NCBI GenBank assembly: GCA_003482905.1
Contig: DMXM01000028.1
Span: 49,703 to 113,702, forward strand
Source: Elusimicrobiota bacterium
GTDB lineage: Bacteria; Elusimicrobiota; Elusimicrobia; Elusimicrobiales; UBA9959
Length of the DNA stretch: 64,000 nt
Direction: 5' to 3'
Shown here in pieces: positions 52,858-64,000 of this stretch; the stretch's first letter is position 1, and each line of letters begins with the position of its first letter. The translations under genes and the position numbers were made by a program. Under the pieces are notes generated by a model. The model did no database searches and was not told the DNA's origin. It saw only the letters and a list, made by a program, of their open reading frames with translations.

Positions 52858-54666
52858 ATGTTCCTGAATCTGGACCCTAAGATCCGTTGTGGTTGGGCTC
52901 TGCTGGCCGCGCTTCTGGCCGGCTGCGCCGCCTCCGGGCCGCGCACGCTATCCCTCGACGGCCTTTCAGCGCCGGAACGTCTCGCGTCGATACCGGTAGA
53001 GCGCCTGCTGCCCCAGAAGAACAGCAAGAAGCCGGCCGACATCAGTATCCGCAAGGGGATCCTGGCCCTCAGGAAAGGGGAATACAAAAAGGCGTCCAAG
53101 GAGCTCAATAAAACCCTGCGCACCGATCCCACCAACTCCAATTACCAGTTCCTCAACGGCCTGGCATACCATCTCATGGCCGAGAACGGCGACGCCAACA
53201 ACTACGAGCAGGCCCAGATCGCCTACGATCTGGCCCTTAAGTTCGACGCCGACAACTGGCTCGCGTCCGAGCAGTCAGGGCAGATCTGCCTGGCCAAGAA
53301 GGATTACGCGGCGGCAGGGGAACATTTCGCCCGCGCGCTCCTGCACCAGCCGGACGACCCCGACATCCTCTACGGGCTGGCGCAGGCCTCCTACCACAGC
53401 CAGGACCTTCAAATGGCGCTCGCCACCATCGGCCGCGCCAGGACGCTCCGTCCGGATTCCGCCCGCATCTCCGGAGCCCACGCGCTTATCTCCGCGGCCG
53501 CCGGGAGGATCGCCGACGCCAGGACGCAACTTGCCTGTTACAACAAGGTCGAGCCCAACAAGGACCGCGTCGCCCGCCTGGCCAACAAGGTGGCCGAATG
53601 GGAGCATTTACGCGACGCGGTCGCGGACAACACGGCCGGCGCCCTTGAGCAGGAGCTTCCCTCCCCCGCCGCGGCGGTGCCGGCATCCGCCGGCGAACCT
53701 CCGGCCGAGGAGGCCAGAGAGGAGAAGATGGTCATCCTCGACGTCATAATGATCCGCACCGAGGAGTTCCAGACCACCAACAAAGGCGTCAACCTCCTAG
53801 AAGGCCTCATGGCGCAGTTCAGCGGTGAGTACACTTACACCAAGACCCGCGAGAACAACGACAGCCCCACCACCGAGAGGGTCCTCTCCCACAGGATCAC
53901 GATCCCGGAGGTCAACTACAACCTGAACATCTTCAACGCCGCGGACGACCAGAACGAGGTCCTGGCCCGGCCCACACTGATCGCGCTCAACGGAAAACCC
54001 TCGACGTTCTTCGCGGGCTCTACCGTGGACGTAGCCGTAACCGGCACGCAGGACGTGGACCTAAAGACCATCGAAGCCGGAGTTACGCTGTCGGTGACAC
54101 CCACGTTCCTGCCCAGCGGCCGCATCATGATGGAGGTCACGGCCGGCAGGTCTTTCTTCGAACTCGGGGCCGTGGGAACGTTCAAGGAGAGCGTTCGGAC
54201 ATCCAAGAACTCGGTGACCGCCAACGTGGTGATGAGCCCGCACCAGACCCTGGTATTGAGCGGTCTGCGCGAGAAGCAGACTACGGAGACGAAATCCGGT
54301 GTCCCCCTGCTGCGGGACATCCCCTTGCTCCAGTACCTTTTTTCCAACGAGAAGACCATGGACTTCCATAAGTCCGTGGTAATACTGATCTCCCCCCGCA
54401 GGCCCCATCCCGGCGTGGACGGTTCCGCCGATCCGGACCAGGTACGGGCGCTTCGCAACGAACCGCAGTATCTTAAACAGTACCGGGAACGCTACGGGCA
54501 CATGTTCGGCCAAGACACCAACATCGAGCATATCTGGGGAAATCTCTACAAATACAAGGTCTTCAACGAGCTCTACAAGACCGGGACTTTCGACCGCAGA
54601 TGGTGGGGCGAAGCGGAACATCTTAACGACGTCCTCCGCCGGACGCTGAGTTTCCTGTATTACTGA
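52858..54666 (+). CDS. lipoprotein with N-terminal TPR domain fused to a secretin C-domain
   Basis: Lipobox LLAGCAASG. TPR repeats at aa ~70-260. Secretin core: ARPTLIALNGKPSTFFAG...GVTLSVTPTF...GVPLLRDIPLLQYLFSNEKT. Confidence 0.75.
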   Translation: MFLNLDPKIRCGWALLAALLAGCAASGPRTLSLDGLSAPERLASIPVERLLPQKNSKKPADISIRKGILALRKGEYKKASKELNKTLRTDPTNSNYQFLNGLAYHLMAENGDANNYEQAQIAYDLALKFDADNWLASEQSGQICLAKKDYAAAGEHFARALLHQPDDPDILYGLAQASYHSQDLQMALATIGRARTLRPDSARISGAHALISAAAGRIADARTQLACYNKVEPNKDRVARLANKVAEWEHLRDAVADNTAGALEQELPSPAAAVPASAGEPPAEEAREEKMVILDVIMIRTEEFQTTNKGVNLLEGLMAQFSGEYTYTKTRENNDSPTTERVLSHRITIPEVNYNLNIFNAADDQNEVLARPTLIALNGKPSTFFAGSTVDVAVTGTQDVDLKTIEAGVTLSVTPTFLPSGRIMMEVTAGRSFFELGAVGTFKESVRTSKNSVTANVVMSPHQTLVLSGLREKQTTETKSGVPLLRDIPLLQYLFSNEKTMDFHKSVVILISPRRPHPGVDGSADPDQVRALRNEPQYLKQYRERYGHMFGQDTNIEHIWGNLYKYKVFNELYKTGTFDRRWWGEAEHLNDVLRRTLSFLYY

Positions 54667-54842
54667 CACCGCCACAAAGCAAAACCGCCGGATCTCCCCG
54701 TATGTACAACGGCATAGATAAAATGAACGAGCCAGCGGCCTAGGGCAGGTTATAATAACGCGGTGTATTCCGGGGAACCGGAACCTATCCGCATATAACA
54801 CGGAGGCGCTGACTCATGAATAATTCCACCACAGTTGCAGGC

Positions 54843-54930: not shown

Positions 54931-55338
54931 CTATTTCCCTAAAGCCGCTTTTATAAGTTTTGCCATCACCTCGTAGCCCGCCTGATTGGGATGAACCCCG
55001 TCCCCGCTATAATCGGGGCGCAGGGCTATCACATCCTGCCGGAACCGCAGCAGCATTTGGTGCGTGGTCTGGCCGCTGATCCCGCGGTTAATGTAACGCG
55101 GATCGGCAAAGATTTGGCGGCGGTCCTGGTCCCAGAACTCGGTGATCGAATCCCCCATAAACACTACCCGGTGGTCCCGCGGGGCTGTATTTTGAACTTG
55201 GGCGTTGTCTGCCTGGTATGCGTGAAAATCAGCCCAGTCAGTTACCGAAAACTCGGCTGCCCGCGCGGCGGAATGGCCGAGGGAAGCAACCGCCAGCAGC
55301 CTGATAAAGAAAGCTGTTTTTTTATTTAAAATGGACAT
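54931..55338 (-). CDS. SGNH/GDSL hydrolase with apparent in-frame internal deletion
   Basis: Block I VVFMGDSITEFW, block II GISGQTT and block V DGVHPNQAGY are present. The ~70-aa segment carrying block III (GxND) is absent, leaving only 135 aa. Confidence 0.6.
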   Translation of the reverse strand: MSILNKKTAFFIRLLAVASLGHSAARAAEFSVTDWADFHAYQADNAQVQNTAPRDHRVVFMGDSITEFWDQDRRQIFADPRYINRGISGQTTHQMLLRFRQDVIALRPDYSGDGVHPNQAGYEVMAKLIKAALGK

Positions 55339-56509: not shown

Positions 56510-56547
56510 ATTCTACCAAAACAAAACCGCCGGGGGCCCTCCCCCCG
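56510..56547 (-). promoter_or_regulatory. terminator/promoter cassette copy 1
   Basis: Minus strand: GC hairpin, then GGCGGTTTTGTTTTGGTAGAAT. TAGAAT ends 7 nt before ATG 56502. Confidence 0.6.
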
Positions 56548-57595: not shown

Positions 57596-57617
57596 ATTCT
57601 ACAAAACAAAACCGCCT
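57596..57617 (-). promoter_or_regulatory. terminator/promoter cassette copy 2 (promoter part only)
   Basis: GGCGGTTTTGTTTTGTAGAAT, with TAGAAT ending 9 nt before ATG 57586. The upstream neighbour is divergent, so no terminator is needed here. Confidence 0.55.
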
Positions 57618-57692
57618 GGATTTGAAACTTCCTGCGCCCGGCCGCATCTAAATCAGGAAGAAGAAATTTAACCGCGACAAGGACTCATCCGC

Positions 57693-58477: not shown

Positions 58478-58514
58478 ATTCTACCAAAACAAAACCGCCG
58501 GGCTTCCCCGGCGG
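58478..58514 (-). promoter_or_regulatory. terminator/promoter cassette copy 3
   Basis: CCGCCGGGGAAGCCCGGCGG hairpin followed by TTTTGTTTTGGTAGAAT. Confidence 0.65.
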
Positions 58515-58539
58515 CTATGCGCTAAAAGTCCCGCTTTTG

Positions 58540-59145
58540 CTATTTTCCGATATTTACCACAATGTCCTTTGCCAGGTCATCGGTCAGGTTCATTATGGCT
58601 TTCTGTATTATCGCCTCGGGCTTTGCCAGTTCCCCTATCTTGCCGCCGAAGGCATGCTTTTCGGAACTTTTGGCCTTACCCACAGCCCTGCCCGCTCCCA
58701 AAAGCTCGCCGGTCTCCAGGTTAACCAGCCGCGCCTCCACCGCAACTTCCACCTTGCGGTCCGTCTTCTCGGCTATTTTCACGCTGCGCCATTCATCGTT
58801 TACGGAGACGGCCGTTACCGAACCGAGCACAGCGTAGCGCGCCCCTATAAGCTTGCCCACCTGCGCCGCGGTGTTGGAGTCTACCACGCCGGCAGTAGCC
58901 AGCTGAAGCTCTTTCATGGCGGCATCCACGCGGGCCCGCTCCACAAGGCGTATCCTGCCGGTCTTCATAAGCGAAGCCGTTAAGGAATCCTGCAGACCGG
59001 TTACGCTGGAAGCATATTGCGGATCCGAAGCCGCATAAGTTAGCGGCATAACGCAGGCCAGCGGGCGCTGCTCAAAAGGTACGCCGGTGCTGGCGCAGGC
59101 TCCTGCCAGCAGCAGGACCGGAAGAAATAACTTGATCTTATTCAT
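58540..59145 (-). CDS. CsgG/HfaB-family-like periplasmic/outer-membrane lipoprotein
   Basis: Start set to MNKIKLFLPVLLLAGACAS (lipobox). ...LQDSLTASLMKTGRIRLVERARVDAAMKELQLATAGVVDSNTAAQVGKLIGARYAVLGSVT matches the CsgG-family pattern, recalled from memory. Confidence 0.5.
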   Translation of the reverse strand: MNKIKLFLPVLLLAGACASTGVPFEQRPLACVMPLTYAASDPQYASSVTGLQDSLTASLMKTGRIRLVERARVDAAMKELQLATAGVVDSNTAAQVGKLIGARYAVLGSVTAVSVNDEWRSVKIAEKTDRKVEVAVEARLVNLETGELLGAGRAVGKAKSSEKHAFGGKIGELAKPEAIIQKAIMNLTDDLAKDIVVNIGK

Positions 59146-59234
59146 GGTTCGGTACCCCCGTATATATTTCAGCAAAACTATGATATCAAAATACCGCGTT
59201 TAGAGTAAAAGCCCGACGGCGCACCGGCCGGTAG

Positions 59235-59852
59235 TCAGAAGCCTGCGTTCAGGCCTATGGTAACCGGCAGCAGCGCGTTCTTGCCGCCTATATTCGCGAC
59301 CCCTATCTGGACCCCTTTCAGCGTGCCGCGGCAGATATTTACGGCGCCCAGCTGCAGGCCGCTCATATCCCCGTCCGTGACATTGTAAAAACCCAGCTGT
59401 ATGCCGCGCATCCGGTCCTTAACCACGTTAACGGGCGCGGCCATAACACCGTTACCCAGGCCGGCCCAGTTCCGAAGCCAGGCGGCCTGTACCCCCCAAG
59501 CCTCGTTGGAAACGTTCCAGCCGCCGAATTGTACGCCGTACTGGTAGTCGGCGAAATTGCGCGCCGGCGACGACTGCAATCCGTAGACCGCGCCGGTGAC
59601 ATAGTTATACCACAGCCCCAGCTGCGCCCCGCCCACGGTCCCGGCGCCATTGAGCACCCCGAACTGCAAACCGTAAATCTCCGGGGTATCTCCGGAAAAG
59701 TTCAGGTTCAGGCCGGCCACCGTATCCACATCCTCCGGCCAGGCCCAGCTGCTCCCGGACAGCTCCAGCTTGAACGGAGTCCAGCCGCAGTTCCCCGCGG
59801 CCGGCGCCAGCGCCAACAGCCACAGCGCGGCAAGAACCTTTAATTTATCCAT
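59235..59852 (-). CDS. secreted tandem-repeat protein (G-phi-Q-phi-G-x-x-N units), C-terminal Phe
   Basis: Signal peptide MDKLKVLAALWLLALAPAAG. About 10 units of 14-16 aa, e.g. GLQFGVLN, GAQLGLWYN, GVQFGGWN, GIQLGFYN, GLQLGAVN, GVQIGVAN. Ends GLNAGF. Confidence 0.65.
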   Translation of the reverse strand: MDKLKVLAALWLLALAPAAGNCGWTPFKLELSGSSWAWPEDVDTVAGLNLNFSGDTPEIYGLQFGVLNGAGTVGGAQLGLWYNYVTGAVYGLQSSPARNFADYQYGVQFGGWNVSNEAWGVQAAWLRNWAGLGNGVMAAPVNVVKDRMRGIQLGFYNVTDGDMSGLQLGAVNICRGTLKGVQIGVANIGGKNALLPVTIGLNAGF

Positions 59853-59916
59853 ATCTTTACCCTCCCCGCTGCCGCATTCGGAAAATTATATATGACCCGG
59901 AAACCTGAACGTCTAT

Positions 59917-59969
59917 ATTCTACCAAACCCGCCCCGCCCCAAAACAAAACCGCCGGGCCTCCCCGGCGG
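59917..59969 (-). promoter_or_regulatory. terminator/promoter cassette copy 4 (with 16-nt insertion)
   Basis: CCGCCGGGGAGGCCCGGCGG-TTTTGTTTTG-GGGCGGGGCGGGTTT-GGTAGAAT, 64 nt upstream of ATG 59852. Confidence 0.6.
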
Positions 59970-59992
59970 CTTAAAAAAAGCAGCCTGGCACC

Positions 59993-60616
59993 TTATTTTT
60001 CTTTGGGGGCGCAGGTCACTTCTTTTAGCCTGGCCGGATATACGGTACGCATGCCGCTCATGGTCCCGAAGGAAAGCGTACGATACACGGCACGGAACAG
60101 GCTGCCGTTGGGGGCGAAATCGAACCACGCCTTGTCTTCCTGGCCGAAAACTACGGAAACCTGCACAGCGGCGCCGTAGCCCAGCAACCCGCACAAAGCG
60201 GTCGCGCGGCCTTCCTGTATCTGTTTCCACCTCGGCTGGACGAACTGGGTCTGCTCGCCGGCGTTCAAGGCCAGGAAATGACAGCCGTCCAATTGGGGGT
60301 CCTGCAGCAGCGCGCCTTTTCCCGTAGTTGCGGGCCGTTCCCCGCTTGACGGTTTCACGCTTTGATCTTCATCCGGCAGAACCGAAAGCCCGGTAAATCT
60401 CTTCCCGTCAAGAACAATGGCCCCGGTCTCCAATTTGGGGACCGGGATATTCCCGCTATCTTTTTCCATCGCCGGGATAGTGGTGTCGAAATCTCCCCTG
60501 CCTGCCACCGCGTCCCTGAGGTCGGCCGGGATATCCTTGTGGAAATCTTTAACGTAAGCGAACCCCGACGCCGTTACTATCACGGCGGCAAACACATATT
60601 CTTTCCAGTTGTTCAT
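59993..60616 (-). CDS. hypothetical membrane-anchored protein
   Basis: 207 aa. N-terminal TM YVFAAVIVTASGFAYV. SD-like AGAGGGA. No family recognised. Confidence 0.5.
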   Translation of the reverse strand: MNNWKEYVFAAVIVTASGFAYVKDFHKDIPADLRDAVAGRGDFDTTIPAMEKDSGNIPVPKLETGAIVLDGKRFTGLSVLPDEDQSVKPSSGERPATTGKGALLQDPQLDGCHFLALNAGEQTQFVQPRWKQIQEGRATALCGLLGYGAAVQVSVVFGQEDKAWFDFAPNGSLFRAVYRTLSFGTMSGMRTVYPARLKEVTCAPKEK

Positions 60617-60712
60617 AATCCCTCTTTAAATAGCCGCATAATACCGTCTTTGACCATCCGCAGCCGATTCAACCAGGTTAAAACAGGCAATGTATCCCCA
60701 GTTCCTGACACC

Positions 60713-61300
60713 TTAATAAAATCCGAGCAGCGAATATATCTTGCCGGAAACAACGGCGCCCGAAACGCCAAAGCCGAACGGAAGAGATATCTTAAGCAGA
60801 CCGGAAACAAAGCGCTTTTTGGAAATCCATCTCATAAAAGGCCCAAAAAGCGCCAGGGCCAATCCCATGGAGATCAAAAACGCCCCGGTGCGGATCCTCT
60901 CCAGCACAAAACTGAACCCGTCGGTTATTGAAATAGCCTGCCCGAAGTACAAACCCAAAGTAAGCAGCAGCCAGCAGAAAATATCCCGCTTCAAGTCAGT
61001 TCTTTTCTTAAAATTCAGCATCTGCAGGAAAAACAGATCATCCCGCGTGGCCCTGGGCGCCGGCGCGGGCGACGCCGCGGGGACGGACATAGGCCTTACC
61101 CCGTTGCCGGTGTCGGGCGAAGGCCCCGGCGTGAACACAGCCGCTGCCGCCGGCTCGGGCGCTGGCGGCGGCGGGGTCTCATAGACATAGAACCCCAGGT
61201 CTAAAATATAATCAGCCGTTTTTTTAGTCAGATCGGAATAATTCATTTTACCAGCCATCTTAACCCTGTCAGCGTAATGCGCAGCCTCCCGCCATATCAC
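60713..61300 (-). CDS. hypothetical membrane protein (start uncertain)
   Basis: GTG start at 61300 per the ORF track; internal ATGs (MAGKMNYSDL) are possible. Pro/Ala-rich linker followed by 3-4 C-terminal TMs. Confidence 0.45.
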   Translation of the reverse strand: MIWREAAHYADRVKMAGKMNYSDLTKKTADYILDLGFYVYETPPPPAPEPAAAAVFTPGPSPDTGNGVRPMSVPAASPAPAPRATRDDLFFLQMLNFKKRTDLKRDIFCWLLLTLGLYFGQAISITDGFSFVLERIRTGAFLISMGLALALFGPFMRWISKKRFVSGLLKISLPFGFGVSGAVVSGKIYSLLGFY

Positions 61301-61463
61301 GAATATTTTACAAAACCGTTGGCCCCTTGGGCGGCCTCAATTATTATTTCCGGGGGCAGTATATTTAATTAGGCGATTTCCATTAAACCAATTGAAATAG
61401 GTGACGTGCCCCAATGATCAACGCAGAGCGATCTTAACAAATTGGGGTTTATCGGGCGTTGGC

Positions 61464-61982
61464 CTATTTCTCAGGCTTAAAGCCCGTGACCTTTCTGGGG
61501 CCGGGATCAAAATCCGGCGGCTGGGCCATTAGCATCTTTATGGCGTCGAATACGCTTTTAAACTGCGCGTCGTATTTCTTTTCCAACCCCTCTAACTTAT
61601 GGGCCAACTCTTTATGGGTGTTAAGCAGCTGCCGCAGTTTAACAAAGGCCCTCATTACCTGTATATTCACCTGTATAGCGCGACTGCTCTTTAGGACTGA
61701 GGACAGCATTAATATCCCATGCTCCGTAAAAGCGTGCGGCATCTTCCTGGTCCCGCCCCAACTTGATGTTCCAGATTGGAACATCAAGTTTTCGAACTCT
61801 TTTTTATTCAATTGGAACATAAAGTCTTCCGGGAAACGCTCCGGATTACGTGAAACCGCCTTGTTTAAATCCCGTGTCCCTACGCCATAAAGGACAGCCA
61901 GCTCCCTGTCCAGCATAACCCTATGGCCTCGGATAAACAGAATCTTCTGCTCAATCATATCTACCGGAATCAATGATTTCAT
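61464..61982 (-). CDS. ORF6N-domain protein (KilA-N-related DNA-binding, antirepressor-like), paralog 1
   Basis: [45 protein letters not shown]...[32 protein letters not shown] is the ORF6N signature, recalled from memory. Confidence 0.7.
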   Translation of the reverse strand: MKSLIPVDMIEQKILFIRGHRVMLDRELAVLYGVGTRDLNKAVSRNPERFPEDFMFQLNKKEFENLMFQSGTSSWGGTRKMPHAFTEHGILMLSSVLKSSRAIQVNIQVMRAFVKLRQLLNTHKELAHKLEGLEKKYDAQFKSVFDAIKMLMAQPPDFDPGPRKVTGFKPEK

Positions 61983-62006
61983 AATCCCCCCTTTTTTTTT
62001 GCATTA

Positions 62007-62041
62007 ATAGCATAGCAGAGCAACCCGACAGTGTAGTGTCG
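62007..62041 (-). promoter_or_regulatory. conserved promoter/operator block (family C) upstream of ORF6N paralog 1
   Basis: Minus strand: CGACACTACACTGTCGGGTTGCTCTGCTATGCTAT. The palindrome arms CGACA/TGTCG are conserved relative to 45576-45610, while the spacer differs. Confidence 0.6.
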
Positions 62042-62153
62042 TATTGCTTTGTCTATATTTTGTGTGATTTACAGGTGTACAGGCTTAGACTACAAAAGGT
62101 CCCTGCTGCCTTTTCCCCGGAGAGCAATAATTATAAGTTGGGGAACAGCGCCC

Positions 62154-62732
62154 CTATCCATGCAGCTTGGAGAGCAGCCAGGCCATGTTCTCGCCCAGCA
62201 CCTTCATGGTCCGCATACCCTCCTCGTCACCCGCCACCTCGCCGATGTTGCGGCCGACGCCGAAATTCCAGTAGCTGGCGCCCGGTATCACCATTTGGTT
62301 TATAGTGAAGAAATGGTTTATGCTGTCGAAAACGTGCACCGCGCCGCCGCGCCTGGCGGCCGCCACAGCCGCGCCCGCCTTCCGCCGGTACAGGCCGCCG
62401 TTGGCCAGGCCCACATAGCCGGCGCGGTCTATCAGCGCCTTCGCCTCCGCGGTCATATCCGCAAAATAGGTGGGGCTGCCTATCAGTATGCCGTCCGCCT
62501 CGCACATCTTCTGCACATAATCGTTCAGGCCGTCGTCCGGCAGCACGCATTTGCGGTCCTTGTTCTTGGCGCAGCCCATGCAGGCGGTGCAACCCCGCAG
62601 CGGCTTGCCAGCCAGCTGCACCAGCTCCGTCCCCATGCCGGCCGCCTCTATCTCGGCCAGAACGGCCCCGAGCAGTATCGCCGTATTCCCGTCCTTGCGC
62701 GGGCTGCAGTTAAAAGCAATAACTTTGGGCAT
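62154..62732 (-). CDS. flavodoxin-fold NAD(P)H-dependent FMN reductase / iron-sulfur flavoprotein-like
   Basis: MPKVIAFNCSPRKDGNT, Cys motif CTACMGC, GILIGSPTYF. SD AGGAGG. Confidence 0.75.
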   Translation of the reverse strand: MPKVIAFNCSPRKDGNTAILLGAVLAEIEAAGMGTELVQLAGKPLRGCTACMGCAKNKDRKCVLPDDGLNDYVQKMCEADGILIGSPTYFADMTAEAKALIDRAGYVGLANGGLYRRKAGAAVAAARRGGAVHVFDSINHFFTINQMVIPGASYWNFGVGRNIGEVAGDEEGMRTMKVLGENMAWLLSKLHG

Positions 62733-62756
62733 ATTTCCTCCTGTCTTCCACCCACA

Positions 62757-62792
62757 ATTCTACAAAACAAAACCGCCGGGCTCTCCCGGCGG
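62757..62792 (-). promoter_or_regulatory. terminator/promoter cassette copy 5
   Basis: CCGCCGGGAGAGCCCGGCGG-TTTTGTTTTGTAGAAT, 24 nt upstream of ATG 62732. Confidence 0.65.
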
Positions 62793-62813
62793 TCAACTGC
62801 CTGCCAGTATTTT

Positions 62814-63392
62814 TTAGATAGATCCCCGCTCTTCCTGTTCGGTCCGGTCCGTTATTAACTGCATTTCCTCAACGTAATCGTAGCCAGGCAGGCCGGCCAT
62901 GGACGCCATCCTGGGGATCTCCGGGGCGTTGGAGACCAGCCGGATAAGGTAGAACACGCCGCCGCCGGTCGCCGGCATAAGGCAGGAGAAGAGCACCTCT
63001 TTTCCGGAGGCCTGCAGCCTGTATACGGCGGCTTCCATAGCCCTTGTGCCGTTCTTTTCAGAGGGGAAAACATTGCTTACCAGCACGTCCCTGTCTTCCA
63101 TCATTTCCTGTTTATAATCGGCCCAGTCATTGGCCACTATTATCGCCCGGGGCCGGGTCCGCTCTTCCACGGCGGCCGCAGCGGGGGCGGCCGCCACCAG
63201 GGCGGTTTCGACCGCGGGGGGAGGCGCAACTTCGGCGGGAGCTGTATTCACCAACTGGCCGGGGGCGGTGGTATTTGCGACGGCGTCCCTGAAATCGGCA
63301 AGGGCCACCGGCTTTTTATTATTTTCCAATATCACAAGAGCAAGCATCACGTTCAGCGACATCGAAAGTACAAGAGCAATTTTATTCGTCAT
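62814..63392 (-). CDS. hypothetical membrane-anchored protein
   Basis: Start set to MTNKIALVLSMSLNVMLALVIL (TM). Ala/Pro linker and a globular C-terminus. No family recognised. Confidence 0.5.
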   Translation of the reverse strand: MTNKIALVLSMSLNVMLALVILENNKKPVALADFRDAVANTTAPGQLVNTAPAEVAPPPAVETALVAAAPAAAAVEERTRPRAIIVANDWADYKQEMMEDRDVLVSNVFPSEKNGTRAMEAAVYRLQASGKEVLFSCLMPATGGGVFYLIRLVSNAPEIPRMASMAGLPGYDYVEEMQLITDRTEQEERGSI

Positions 63393-63485
63393 TTCTCTCC
63401 TCGTCCCAAAAAACATTCCCGGACGCTAAAGTATATTATTTAAAGTTTTAACCCCCGCAGCAAGCCCTTTGTTCCCTTTTTCCGC

Positions 63486-64000
63486 TTACGGCTTGAACCC
63501 AGGGACCGTTTTGGGGCCGGGGCCGGTATCGGGGGGCACAGACATCAGCGCTCTTATGGCGTCAAAGACGCTTTTAAACTGGGCGTCGTATTTCTTTTCC
63601 AGCGTCTCCAGCTTACGGGCCATGTCCTTATGCGTGCTGAGCAGTTCCCGCAGCTTAACAAAGGCCCGCATTATCTGAACATTAACCTGCCTGGCACGTT
63701 TACTTTTAAGAACACTCGAAAGCATGGCCACACCCTGCTCCGTGAACGCGTACGGCAATTGCGGGGAATACTTAATTGCCTTGAGGTGGTCACAATTTGT
63801 GACCACCTCGGTTTTCTCTGTTAAATTCAGAGTGAACATAAAGTCTTCAGGGAAACTTTCCAAATTACGCTTAACAGCTTGATTAAGCGCCTTCGTGCTA
63901 ACCTCGTATAACTCCGCCAGATCACGATCGAGCATCACCCTGTGTCCGCGTATCATTAATATTTTATTCTCGATAATTTCTAAAGGAATCAACCCTTTCA
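63486..64000 (-). CDS. ORF6N-domain protein, paralog 2 (5' end cut by window edge)
   Basis: [45 protein letters not shown]... The C-terminus [18 protein letters not shown] is near-identical to paralog 1. The frame reads ..TG-AAA-GGG-TTG-ATT, so the ATG probably starts at position 64001. Confidence 0.7.

What the first reader, a model, noticed from the sequence alone, without database searches (positions are those of the whole stretch)
58540..59852. CsgG-family-like lipoprotein adjacent to a secreted Q-x-G-x-x-N tandem-repeat protein: candidate curli-like / surface-fibre system
The 205-aa secreted protein consists almost entirely of ~10 tandem 14-16-aa units with the ladder G-[LVI]-Q-[LFI]-G-x-x-N (GLQFGVLN, GAQLGLWYN, GVQFGGWN, GIQLGFYN, GLQLGAVN, GVQIGVAN) and ends in Phe. 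Stacked Gln/Gly/Asn ladders are the defining feature of curli CsgA/CsgB repeats (S-x5-Q-x-G-x-G-N-x-A-x3-Q), although those units are longer. The next gene downstream encodes a lipoprotein whose sequence matches the CsgG/HfaB pattern, i.e. the outer-membrane channel family that exports curli subunits and holdfast anchors. Two uncharacterised membrane proteins lie upstream (59993-61300). No CsgE/F/B homologs are recognisable, so if this is an amyloid or fibre system it is not a canonical one. Alternatively, the repeat protein belongs to a spirochaete-type surface-repeat family I recall only vaguely, or it is a small OM beta-barrel.
Basis: partly seen in the sequence, partly recalled or inferred. 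Interest (0 to 1): 0.65.

Follow-up and report, generated by a model that had tools for sequence, protein, structure and literature searches.

The report
Capped beta-solenoid repeat protein, not curli
The repeat protein is a real but ordinary member of a very large, uncharacterised family of secreted bacterial repeat proteins predicted to fold as a short capped beta-solenoid rod, and the lipoprotein next to it is only a distant, pore-less cousin of the curli channel CsgG, so the two genes do not make a curli-like fibre system.

Summary
In this Elusimicrobia MAG, 59235-59852(-) encodes a 205-aa signal-peptide protein with ten 14-16-aa G-Φ-Q-Φ-G-x-Φ-N units, ending in Phe. The next gene, 58540-59145(-), encodes a 201-aa lipoprotein that passes Pfam CsgG.

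The curli-like interpretation does not hold.
- **Repeat protein:** A profile search found 7,784 clusters.
- **No curlin signal:** there is no Pfam hit, and hhalign against CsgA gives 0.6% probability.
- **Fold:** AlphaFold2 (pLDDT 93.6) gives an all-parallel β-solenoid. It is not a barrel and has no solved relative. Conserved Pro-containing terminal rungs look like caps.
- **Lipoprotein:** it matches only CsgG's core α/β domain and equally resembles LpoB, GNA1162, PelC and FlgT. The hairpin that aligns with CsgG's TM1 is shorter and 10/21 charged, against 3/21 in CsgG. The segment where TM2 would lie does not align with CsgG.
- **Synteny:** the two genes are adjacent in 2 of about 17 family contexts examined, once tandem and once divergent. 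A weak terminator-like hairpin plus a promoter-like site lie between them.
- **Missing partners:** no CsgE/F/B-like genes are present.

The most likely reading is two independent envelope genes. The family's function remains unknown.

The parts
59235..59852 (-). CDS of the 205-aa LA_2272-family repeat protein (stop codon included). An RBS-like GGGGAGG lies 8 nt upstream and a TATAAT hexamer lies at 59885-59890.
   Evidence: ORF list; sequence read; NF047436 62.9 bits against cutoff 25; identical protein P0001 annotated as hypothetical in an Elusimicrobia MAG.
59793..59852 (-). Signal peptide, aa 1-20 (MDKLKVLAALWLLALAPAAG). Probable signal peptidase I site is AAG|NC. It is not a lipobox, because N or D sits at -1 in the orthologues.
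   Evidence: Sequence inspection; AF2 helix at residues 2-21. No dedicated signal-peptide predictor was available.
59715..59786 (-). N-terminal conserved non-repeat segment, aa 23-46 (GWTPFKLELSGSSWAWPEDVDTVA). It holds the family's W-[TS]-P motif and two near-invariant prolines. Inferred to be the N-terminal cap of the solenoid.
   Evidence: Invariant or near-invariant W23, P25 and P38 (alignment numbering) in A1; strand 23-29 in the AF2 model. The cap role is an inference.
59271..59714 (-). Ten tandem 14-16-aa units, aa 47-194, with consensus G-Φ-Q-Φ-G-x-Φ-N-x-x-x-[G/D]-x-Φ-x. Each unit is modelled as one rung of a parallel β-solenoid.
   Evidence: Motif positions; family unit statistics; AF2 pLDDT 96-98 across this region with near-continuous β.
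59238..59270 (-). C-terminal conserved segment, aa 195-205 (LPVTIGLNAGF). It is a degenerate last rung with an invariant Pro and a terminal Phe. Inferred to be the C-terminal cap.
   Evidence: L194, P195, N201 and G203 are invariant and F204 nearly invariant in A1. Family C-terminal consensus is [LV]-P-[FV]-x-P-x-x-N-x-[GS]-F, and 202 of 262 sequences end in F/W/Y.
58540..59145 (-). CDS of the 201-aa lipoprotein of the CsgG/LpoB/GNA1162/PelC fold superfamily (lipobox LLAGA-C17).
   Evidence: Pfam CsgG 60.9 bits and LpoB 41 bits; start codon read; lipobox kept in orthologues; AF2 pLDDT 82; Foldseek PDB matches.
59947..59972 (-). Strong terminator-like hairpin (11 bp stem plus T-rich tail extending to ~59937) upstream of the repeat gene. 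It separates the gene from the two upstream membrane-protein ORFs.
   Evidence: Terminator scan; pattern search.
59213..59227 (-). Weak terminator-like hairpin (6 bp stem) directly after the repeat gene's stop codon.
59180..59209 (-). Promoter-like site (TTTACT, 18-nt spacer, TG-TATCAT) in the 59-bp spacer ahead of the lipoprotein gene.
   Evidence: This is a consensus match only.
58485..58516 (-). Second copy of the same strong terminator-like hairpin, downstream of the lipoprotein gene.

Best explanation
These are two neighbouring but functionally independent cell-envelope genes of an Elusimicrobia bacterium.

**Gene 1, the repeat protein.**
- It is exported by Sec and cleaved after AAG (inferred from the sequence).
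- It folds into a rod of about ten ~15-residue rungs, a parallel β-solenoid (predicted by AF2).
- Each rung is a β-arch: a 7-residue strand (unit positions 13-4), an arc at G5-x6, a 4-residue strand (positions 7-10), and an arc at positions 11-12.
- The invariant Gln and Asn flank the x-G-x-x arc, as they do in curli arc 1. They probably form internal H-bond ladders (inferred by analogy).
- Both ends are conserved Pro-containing degenerate rungs: W-T-P... at the N-terminus and ...L-P-x-x-x-G-x-N-x-G-F at the C-terminus. They would act as caps blocking end-to-end polymerisation (inferred). That makes the protein a discrete envelope or surface rod rather than an amyloid subunit.
- It is a small member of the LA_2272 / VC2662 repeat family. 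That family is very large, varies in rung number (about 4 to more than 30 units) and has no known function.

**Gene 2, the lipoprotein.**
- It is periplasm-facing and has the CsgG-like α/β core. It is conserved as a lone gene across Elusimicrobia.
- Its long β-hairpins are highly charged, so it is unlikely to span the outer membrane as a CsgG-type pore.
- It more likely acts as a soluble-domain, possibly ring-forming, envelope lipoprotein, as LpoB, PelC, GNA1162 and FlgT do.

**The adjacency** is a lineage-specific leftover of gene order, not an operon-encoded secretion system.
For: Family assignment:
- NF047436 scores 62.9 bits against a cutoff of 25, and all 29 diverse relatives match it.
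- The profile search found 7,784 clusters at E<=1e-3 and 3,186 at E<=1e-10.

Fold:
- AF2 gives pLDDT 93.6 and pTM 0.81. β runs almost continuously over residues 43-137, and the C-terminal rungs break at unit positions 5-6 and 11-12.
- Foldseek against the PDB finds nothing at E<1. The weak top matches are left-handed β-helices (GlmU, LpxA), the 15-residue-coil spruce budworm antifreeze protein and TPS domains. None is a barrel.
- There is no PDB sequence relative at E<=10 and no viral match.

Not curlin:
- There is no Pfam hit at E<=1, and hhalign against CsgA gives 0.6% probability.
- The curli kernel has two arcs per ~23 aa and open ends (PMC10192328).

Caps: the terminal motifs are invariant.

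Lipoprotein:
- The CsgG similarity is confined to the core (hhalign 94.8% probability, query residues 51-153 against CsgG 80-192).
- Foldseek gives near-equal matches to CsgG, GNA1162, an LPHT-ring chain, FlgT, LpoB, PelC and HpaA, with TM about 0.4-0.5.
- The hairpin is 10/21 charged with 1 aromatic residue. CsgG TM1 is 3/21 charged with 3 aromatics.
- Some relatives have signal peptidase I sites instead of a lipobox.

Synteny:
- The pair is adjacent only in the window (tandem) and in MAG DAIENX (divergent).
- It is absent around the other orthologues and around six diverse family members.
- Lipoprotein orthologues L013-L015 have no repeat gene nearby.
- The lipoprotein is 81% identical between the two genomes that keep the pair, against 60% for the repeat protein.
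- A weak terminator-like hairpin and a promoter-like site lie between the genes.
Against: - Adjacency in two fairly divergent genomes, plus a distant CsgG-like gene 2 kb from a short paralogue in L026, is more than two random genes would show. It may reflect a loose functional link.
- The pair is bracketed by identical strong terminator-like hairpins, and the internal hairpin is weak, so co-transcription is possible.
- I could not inspect model coordinates. The inward or outward orientation of Gln/Asn, the handedness, the cap geometry and the extent of the lipoprotein hairpins are inferred from DSSP strings and sequence parity only.
- The family is low in charge (~13%), rich in aromatics and ends in Phe. 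These are features of BAM-dependent outer-membrane proteins.
- No experimental data exist for any family member beyond one proteomic detection and one phenotype-less deletion of VC2662.
Confidence: 0.62

Rival explanations
1. Lineage-specific two-gene module. The CsgG-superfamily lipoprotein forms a periplasmic or outer-membrane-associated ring that anchors, chaperones or helps export the β-solenoid protein in some Elusimicrobia. It would not be a canonical curli system.
For: - The pair is adjacent in the window and in MAG DAIENX although the flanking genes differ. The two arrangements differ by one single-gene inversion.
- A distant CsgG-like gene lies 2 kb upstream of a mini-paralogue in L026.
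- The pair is bracketed by twin terminator-like hairpins.
- CsgG-fold lipoproteins such as PelC, CsgG and FlgT typically form rings that serve envelope assemblies.
Against: - No adjacency was found in at least 5 other orthologue contexts or around 6 diverse family members.
- Lipoprotein orthologues are far more widespread (78 clusters against 13) and stand alone.
- The divergent orientation in DAIENX rules out co-transcription there.
- A terminator-like hairpin and a promoter-like site lie between the genes.
- The hairpins are charged, so no pore is expected.
Confidence: 0.17
2. The repeat protein is an outer-membrane-integrated BAM substrate, or is otherwise membrane- or lipid-embedded through a largely apolar, aromatic surface. 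It would not be a soluble rod. The reader's version of this idea was a small outer-membrane β-barrel.
For: - The terminal Phe is preceded by alternating hydrophobic residues (...I-G-L-N-A-G-F), which resembles a β-signal. 77% of family members end in F/W/Y.
- Only ~11-13% of residues are charged and 9-12% are aromatic. Charges are confined to unit positions 11-15.
- VC2662 rose together with OmpT, OmpA and OmpV in a V. cholerae ΔompU proteome (PMC10865864).
- Leptospira homologues were bioinformatically predicted to be outer-membrane proteins.
Against: - The AF2 model is confident. Its DSSP pattern shows 95 consecutive β residues, which fits in-register parallel stacking and not antiparallel hairpins.
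- No β-barrel appears among the Foldseek matches.
- The ~4-7-residue strands are too short to span a bilayer.
- Rung number varies from about 4 to more than 30, which is natural for a solenoid but not for a barrel.
Confidence: 0.1
3. A genuine non-canonical functional-amyloid system. The repeat protein is secreted unfolded through a channel made by the CsgG-like lipoprotein and polymerises into surface fibres.
For: - The Q-x-G-x-x-N arc motif is the same as curli arc 1.
- The protein is predicted to be a β-solenoid with Gln/Asn ladders.
- The neighbouring gene passes the Pfam CsgG threshold.
Against: - There is no curlin-repeat homology.
- The rung is 15 aa with a single arc.
- The termini are conserved and cap-like.
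- The lipoprotein lacks amphipathic transmembrane hairpins, and the stretch where CsgG carries its constriction loop (β1 to α1) is ~10 aa shorter by my own count and is not aligned.
- No CsgB/E/F equivalents and no second subunit gene occur in 64 kb.
- The pairing is not conserved.
Confidence: 0.04

Closest known systems
NCBIfam NF047436 'LA_2272 family surface repeat-containing protein', with the related models NF047435 (LA_2272/LA_2273 lipoprotein, Leptospira) and NF047437 (VC2662 family, Vibrio cholerae)
   Same: - It scores above the curated cutoff (62.9 against 25).
- It has the same ~15-aa G-Φ-Q-Φ-G-x-Φ-N unit, a signal peptide, the W-[TS]-P N-terminal motif and the ...P-x-x-x-x-N-x-G-F C-terminus.
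   Different: - It is below the equivalog cutoffs of VC2662_fam (29.9 against 140).
- It matches LA_2272_fam_lipo only through the repeat part (profile positions 35-59) and has no lipobox of its own.
- It belongs to a small Elusimicrobia-specific orthologue group (13 clusters, 57-67% identity).
- No member of the family has a known function or structure.
Curli major subunit CsgA / curlin repeat (Pfam PF07012; architecture in Sleutel et al. 2023, PMC10192328)
   Same: - Both are secreted Gly/Gln/Asn-rich tandem-repeat proteins predicted to be parallel β-solenoids.
- Both carry the β-arc signature Q-x-G-x-x-N.
   Different: - There is no sequence or profile similarity.
- This protein has ~15 aa per rung with one arc. 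Curli has ~23 aa per rung with two N-$-Ψ-$-Ψ-$-Q strands.
- Its exposed positions are apolar or aromatic rather than polar or charged.
- It has conserved Pro-containing terminal rungs where curli has open ends.
- There is no csgB/E/F context.
- Foldseek did not retrieve curli structures.
CsgG curli secretion channel (Pfam PF03783; PDB 4uv3, 4q79, 6si7)
   Same: - It is a lipoprotein with the same α/β core fold. Pfam GA is passed, hhalign gives 94.8% probability, and Foldseek gives E ~2e-8.
- A β-hairpin sits at the position of CsgG TM1.
   Different: - It is 201 aa, against 277 aa for CsgG.
- The aligned region is the core only.
- The hairpin is 6 residues shorter and 10/21 charged, against 3/21 in CsgG.
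- The TM2-equivalent segment (GKAKSSEKHAFGGKIGE) is short and polar.
- The Y-N-F constriction-loop region is ~10 aa shorter and not aligned.
- There are no curli or holdfast partner genes.
Other CsgG-fold envelope lipoproteins: LpoB, GNA1162, PelC, FlgT, HpaA, CT253
   Same: - Foldseek E-values (1e-8 to 1e-5) and TM-scores are comparable with those for CsgG.
- Pfam LpoB is passed (41 bits against 22.3).
- Like them, it is a small periplasmic lipoprotein domain without a membrane pore.
   Different: - It fails the LpoB equivalog model TIGR02722 (37.7 against 110.55).
- It has long charged hairpins and the Elusimicrobia-specific conserved motifs RSVKIAEKT and EKHAFGGKIG.
- It has no PBP, Pel or flagellar gene context.
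Left-handed β-helix proteins (LβH acyltransferases) and the 15-residue-coil spruce budworm antifreeze protein (PDB 1m8n)
   Same: These are the only weak Foldseek neighbours. The ~15-residue coil length equals that of CfAFP.
   Different: E-values are above 1 and TM-scores are 0.1-0.3. There is no hexapeptide or T-x-T motif, so these are analogues at best.

Membership tests
LA_2272 repeat family (NCBIfam NF047436) | Score at or above the curated domain cutoff (25 bits) with multiple repeat matches | tested here: met
   62.9 bits, E 1.7e-17, 4 stretches. All 29 aligned relatives also match.
LA_2272 repeat family (NCBIfam NF047436) | Shared architecture: signal peptide, W-[TS]-P N-terminal motif, 14-16-aa G-x-Q units, C-terminal P...N-x-G-F/W | tested here: met
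   This architecture is my own description of the relatives, not NCBI's published definition.
VC2662 family (NF047437, equivalog) | Score at or above 140 bits | tested here: not met
   29.9 bits.
LA_2272/LA_2273 lipoprotein (NF047435) | Match to the N-terminal lipoprotein part, plus a lipobox | tested here: not met
   33 bits is just over the 30-bit cutoff, but only profile positions 35-59 (the repeat part) match, at residues 163-187. The N-terminus reads AAG-N-C, which is not a lipobox.
Curlin / CsgA-CsgB (Pfam PF07012) | Curlin_rpt HMM match or profile similarity to CsgA | tested here: not met
   No Pfam hit at E<=1.
Curlin / CsgA-CsgB (Pfam PF07012) | ~23-aa repeat with two N-$-Ψ-$-Ψ-$-Q strands joined by x-G-x-x arcs (PMC10192328) | tested here: not met
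   Units are 14-16 aa with one Q-x-G-x-x-N arc each.
Curlin / CsgA-CsgB (Pfam PF07012) | Open-ended (uncapped) solenoid able to polymerise; amyloid behaviour | not testable with these tools
   Conserved Pro-containing terminal rungs suggest caps.
Curlin / CsgA-CsgB (Pfam PF07012) | csg-type gene context (csgB nucleator, csgE, csgF, csgG) | tested here: not met
   Only one repeat-family gene occurs in 64 kb. Neighbours have no CsgE/F families.
CsgG/HfaB (Pfam PF03783) | Pfam gathering threshold | tested here: met
   60.9 bits against 20.8, but profile positions 38-164 of 210 only. The clan-mate LpoB is also passed.
CsgG/HfaB (Pfam PF03783) | N-terminal lipidation signal | tested here: met
   LLAGA-C17, conserved in close orthologues. 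Some distant relatives have signal peptidase I sites instead.
CsgG/HfaB (Pfam PF03783) | Two amphipathic transmembrane β-hairpins per protomer (TM1, TM2) forming the outer-membrane barrel | tested here: not met
   The hairpin-1 equivalent is 10/21 charged with 1 aromatic. The hairpin-2 equivalent is 7/23 charged and short. CsgG TM1 is 3/21 charged with 3 aromatics, and CsgG TM2 is 6/25 charged with 5 aromatics.
CsgG/HfaB (Pfam PF03783) | Constriction (C-) loop with Tyr/Asn/Phe | tested here: inconclusive
   This region is outside every alignment obtained. By my own count, the β1-α1 linker is ~10 aa shorter.
CsgG/HfaB (Pfam PF03783) | Nonameric pore assembly | not testable with these tools
   No multimer prediction was available.
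LpoB (TIGR02722 equivalog) | Score at or above 110.55 bits | tested here: not met
   37.7 bits.
Outer-membrane β-barrel protein | Antiparallel β-barrel fold | tested here: not met
   The AF2 model (pLDDT 93.6) shows continuous parallel-type β. Foldseek neighbours are β-helices only.

The most novel reading that the evidence does not exclude
The LA_2272/VC2662 repeat proteins could be a major unstudied class of bacterial envelope β-solenoids. The profile search found more than 7,000 sequence clusters. Named members here come from Elusimicrobia, Lentisphaerae and Myxococcota, and the NCBIfam model names point to Leptospira and Vibrio. They would have a minimal ~15-residue rung built on a curli-type Q-x-G-x-x-N arc, an unusually apolar and aromatic exterior and a BAM-like C-terminal Phe. 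On this reading they are surface or outer-membrane-embedded rods, or laterally self-assembling sheets, with a fold not represented in the PDB. In some Elusimicrobia they would be serviced by a pore-less CsgG-fold lipoprotein ring.
Probability: 0.12. Interest if true: 0.7.

Novelty: new member of a known kind. Interest (0 to 1): 0.28.

Why it matters
As filed, a possible new curli-like amyloid system, the finding would have been notable. The evidence instead shows two catalogued gene types sitting side by side.

What remains of value is general rather than specific to this locus:
- The LA_2272 repeat family is very large.
- It has no Pfam model, no solved structure and no known function.
- It is predicted with very high confidence to adopt a compact β-solenoid that uses the same Gln/Gly/Asn arc as curli.

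Working out where these proteins sit in the envelope and what their apolar Gln/Asn-laddered surface binds would fill a real annotation gap. Cultured organisms such as Vibrio cholerae (VC2662), Leptospira (LA_2272/LA_2273) and Elusimicrobium minutum would be suitable for that work.

Tried and rejected
- **Curlin homology:** no Pfam Curlin_rpt hit and no hhalign similarity to CsgA. Rejected.
- **Outer-membrane barrel:** rejected on the AF2 DSSP pattern and the Foldseek neighbours.
- **Defence system:** PADLOC gave no hits.
- **Conserved partner gene:** all-against-all BLAST of ORFs within 4.5 kb of the repeat gene across loci found no neighbour shared beyond duplicates of the same genome.
- **Broader neighbourhood sampling:**
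  - The genome-contig scan gave only 7 loci.
With A4 it gave 11 loci.
  - Six look-ups of diverse family members showed no CsgG neighbour.
- **Upstream ORFs as part of the system:** the two membrane ORFs at 59993-61300 have no family hits and lie behind a strong terminator-like hairpin. Rejected.
- **Nearby TPR-secretin (52858-54666) as exporter:** it sits on the opposite strand among unrelated genes. I did not pursue it.
- **Literature:** searches for LA_2272, LIC11664/5, VC2662 and the family names returned two bioinformatic predictions and one proteomic or deletion mention without phenotype.
Full report
**Source and genes.** The window's two proteins are identical to hypothetical proteins of an Elusimicrobia MAG (P0001 and P0014). 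ORF listing and direct reading confirm two same-strand genes.
- The repeat protein lies at 59235-59852(-), 205 aa, with an RBS-like GGGGAGG and a TATAAT hexamer upstream.
- The lipoprotein's real start is the ATG at 59145 (58540-59145(-), 201 aa), 59 bp downstream of the repeat gene.

**Check of the observation.** The repeat protein has a typical signal peptide, modelled as a helix by AF2.
- Eight clear G-x-Q-x-[G/A/S]-...-N units start at aa 61, 75, 91, 106, 120, 150, 165 and 180.
- Two degenerate units start at aa 47 and 135, which makes ten units of 14-16 aa.
- The protein ends ...LPVTIGLNAGF.

No DNA tandem repeat exists, so the periodicity is ancient and lies at protein level. It is far beyond chance. 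NCBIfam LA_2272_repeat scores 62.9 bits (E 1.7e-17, cutoff 25). In 262 relatives the spacing of G-x-Q motifs peaks at 14, 15 and 16 residues (649, 783 and 365 cases).

**What the repeat protein is.** Pfam has no model for it, and Curlin_rpt gives no hit at E<=1.
- *Family.* NCBIfam files it under NF047436, 'LA_2272 family surface repeat-containing protein'. Sub-threshold or partial matches go to the Leptospira LA_2272/LA_2273 lipoprotein model and the Vibrio VC2662 model.
- *Size.* A profile of the Elusimicrobia orthologues, run against 1.84 billion representatives, found 7,784 clusters at E<=1e-3 and 3,186 at E<=1e-10. The 150 best-scoring hits are 112-1009 aa long. All 29 diverse members I aligned match NF047436.
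- *Shared architecture*:
  - a signal peptide;
  - a W-[TS]-P-Φ-[QK] segment with conserved prolines;
  - a variable number of ~15-aa units, from 3 to 30 with a median of 10;
  - a C-terminal [LV]-P-x-x-P-x-x-N-x-[GS]-F that ends the protein (202 of 262 end in F/W/Y).
- *Variants.* Mini-versions of 113-117 aa have just four units between the same termini.
- *Composition.* Charged residues are scarce (~13%) and confined to unit positions 11-15, and aromatics are frequent.
- *Literature.* Searches found only two in-silico surface or outer-membrane predictions for the Leptospira proteins. One of them threaded the proteins onto β-helix templates (pertactin, pectate lyase). A V. cholerae study found VC2662 enriched with outer-membrane proteins in a ΔompU proteome, and its deletion had no colony phenotype.

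**Predicted structure of the repeat protein.** With a 29-sequence alignment, AF2 gives pLDDT 93.6 and pTM 0.81.
- DSSP shows 95 consecutive β residues. That is the signature of in-register parallel stacking and not of antiparallel hairpins.
- In the last rungs the pattern resolves into four parts: a 7-residue strand (unit positions 13-4), a break at G5-x6, a 4-residue strand (positions 7-10), and a break at positions 11-12. Each 15-aa unit is therefore one β-arch.
- Foldseek against the PDB finds nothing at E<1. The weak neighbours are left-handed β-helices (GlmU, LpxA and other LβH enzymes), the 15-residue-coil spruce budworm antifreeze protein and TPS or pectate-lyase-like helices. There is no barrel and no curli fibril.

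**Comparison with curli.** Sleutel et al. 2023 (PMC10192328) define the curlin kernel as N-$-Ψ-$-Ψ-$-Q-x-G-x-x repeated twice per ~23-aa repeat. Gln and Asn face the core, the $ positions are polar, and the ends are open and uncapped, which drives polymerisation.
- *Shared.* The Q-x-G-x-x-N arc is the same, so by analogy its Gln and Asn are probably core-facing ladders. This is an inference, because I could not view coordinates.
- *Different.* This protein has one arc per 15 aa, its flanking positions are hydrophobic or aromatic, and its two terminal rungs are conserved Pro-containing degenerate units.
- *No homology.* hhalign against E. coli CsgA gives 0.6% probability.

I read the terminal rungs as caps. 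This is negative design against edge-to-edge aggregation, a general property of non-fibrous β-solenoids, and it is also an inference. The variable rung number between constant termini fits a capped rod of adjustable length.

**What the lipoprotein is.**
- *Sequence similarity.* It passes Pfam CsgG (60.9 bits against 20.8) over profile positions 38-164 of 210. It also passes Pfam LpoB (41 against 22.3) but fails the LpoB equivalog model (37.7 against 110.55).
- *Alignment to CsgG.* A 49-sequence profile hits CsgG chains in the PDB at E 1.6e-4. hhalign gives 94.8% probability. Both cover only the core, query residues 51-153 against CsgG 80-192.
- *Fold.* AF2 (pLDDT 82) shows an α/β core with long hairpins. 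Foldseek matches CsgG, GNA1162, an LPHT-ring chain, FlgT, LpoB, PelC, HpaA and CT253 at similar E-values (1e-8 to 1e-5) with TM about 0.4-0.5.
- *First hairpin.* The stretch aligned to CsgG TM1 is 6 residues shorter. Its sequence is VSVNDEWRSVKIAEKTDRKVE, with 10/21 charged and 1 aromatic. CsgG TM1 has 3/21 charged and 3 aromatics.
- *Second hairpin.* The equivalent stretch (GAGRAVGKAKSSEKHAFGGKIGE) is short and polar.
- *Other differences from CsgG.* The protein is ~75 aa shorter than CsgG. By my own count, the constriction-loop region is ~10 aa shorter, and it lies outside every alignment.
- *Lipidation.* Close orthologues keep the lipobox, but some relatives have signal peptidase I sites instead.

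It is therefore a CsgG-superfamily lipoprotein, but it fails the features that make CsgG a membrane channel.

**Gene context.**
- *Transcription signals.* Strong, nearly identical terminator-like hairpins (GCCGCCGGGGA[A/G]GCCCGGCGGTTTTGTTTTG) lie just upstream of the repeat gene and just downstream of the lipoprotein gene. This cuts off the two upstream membrane ORFs. A weak terminator-like hairpin (59213-59227) and a promoter-like site (59180-59209) lie between the two genes.
- *Orthologue contexts.* Among contexts of the full-length orthologue, a CsgG-like gene is adjacent only in the window (tandem) and in MAG DAIENX (divergent). The two arrangements differ by one single-gene inversion.
- *No CsgG-like gene nearby.* None is found around P0009 (±7.8 kb) or in the available flanks around P0003, P0005 and P0008, locus L021, and the short contigs L016, L018 and L020.
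- *Short paralogues.* They lack a CsgG-like neighbour too. The exception is L026, where a distant CsgG-like gene sits 2 kb away with two unrelated genes between.
- *Wider sampling.* Six diverse family members, including an E. minutum-type protein, have no PF03783 neighbour within ±5 kb.
- *The converse.* Lipoprotein orthologues are more numerous (78 clusters against 13). In L013-L015 they stand alone in unrelated contexts.
- *Rates of change.* Between the two genomes that keep the pair, the lipoprotein is 81% identical and the repeat protein 60%.
- *No other partner.* No other neighbour is conserved. No CsgB/E/F-like gene and no second repeat gene exist in the 64-kb window.

**Verdict.**
- *Curli-like reading.* The system interpretation is not supported. 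The CsgG assignment holds only at superfamily level.
- *Best explanation.* The locus holds two independent envelope genes. One is a Sec-exported, capped, ~10-rung β-solenoid of the LA_2272 family. The other is a pore-less CsgG-fold lipoprotein.
- *Residual doubt.* About 0.17 goes to a lineage-specific functional pairing. About 0.10 goes to the solenoid being membrane-associated or BAM-dependent, given its apolar surface and terminal Phe.
- *Function.* The family's function is unknown. I propose a structural or adhesive envelope rod, and this is the least secure step.
- *Novelty and interest.* This is a new member of a known, catalogued but uncharacterised kind. Interest is modest for this locus and somewhat higher for the family as a whole.

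Noticed in passing
window 54675-54691, 56517-56533, 57602-57618, 58485-58515, 59940-59970, 62763-62793 (all on the - strand): A stereotyped GC-rich hairpin followed by TTTTGTTTTG recurs six times in the last 10 kb, against 0.01 expected by chance. Three copies are near-identical over 31 nt. It looks like a genome-specific intrinsic-terminator or REP-like element family.
   Followed up: partly
window 61464-61982(-) and 63486-63992(-); GC profile 60001-64000: Two paralogous ORF6N-domain genes (Pfam PF10543, 112 and 102 bits) lie 1.5 kb apart. The region has lower G+C (0.52-0.55, against ~0.60 elsewhere), which may indicate a mobile or phage-derived island beginning just upstream of the repeat gene.
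   Followed up: partly
window 52858-54666(+): A 602-aa protein combines N-terminal TPR repeats with a C-terminal secretin domain (PF00263, 100 bits). No obvious pilus or T2SS partner genes lie in the adjacent ORFs.
   Followed up: partly
L026 8004-8345; proteins P0010-P0012 (L005, L011, L012): Elusimicrobia also carry 113-117-aa mini-paralogues of the repeat protein. They have a signal peptide, the WTP N-terminal segment, only four units, and the same ...NVC[KR]GTLKG...LPVTIG[IL]N[AI]GF end. This suggests the termini are fixed modules and only rung number varies.
   Followed up: partly
protein P0092 (866 aa): One family member has two complete solenoid modules, each with its own WT.-type start and ...P..N.S.F end. 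They flank what looks by eye like an ankyrin-repeat segment (GNTPLH... motifs). This is a rare domain fusion in a family otherwise devoid of Pfam domains.
   Followed up: no
L029 5001-6020 and 6034-6909: Two LA_2272-family genes sit in tandem, 13 bp apart, in an unrelated metagenomic contig. Paralogue pairs therefore exist elsewhere although not in this window.
   Followed up: no
alignment A2 (lipoprotein family), window protein residues ~119-128 and ~161-171: The charged hairpin motifs RSVKIAEKT and EKHAFGGKIG are highly conserved across Elusimicrobia lipoprotein orthologues. This points to a specific binding function for the hairpins rather than membrane insertion.
   Followed up: no
window 54931-55338(-): A 135-aa ORF matches only the two ends of GDSL/SGNH lipase models (profile 1-65 and 185-208). 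It may be a truncated or internally deleted hydrolase gene.
   Followed up: no
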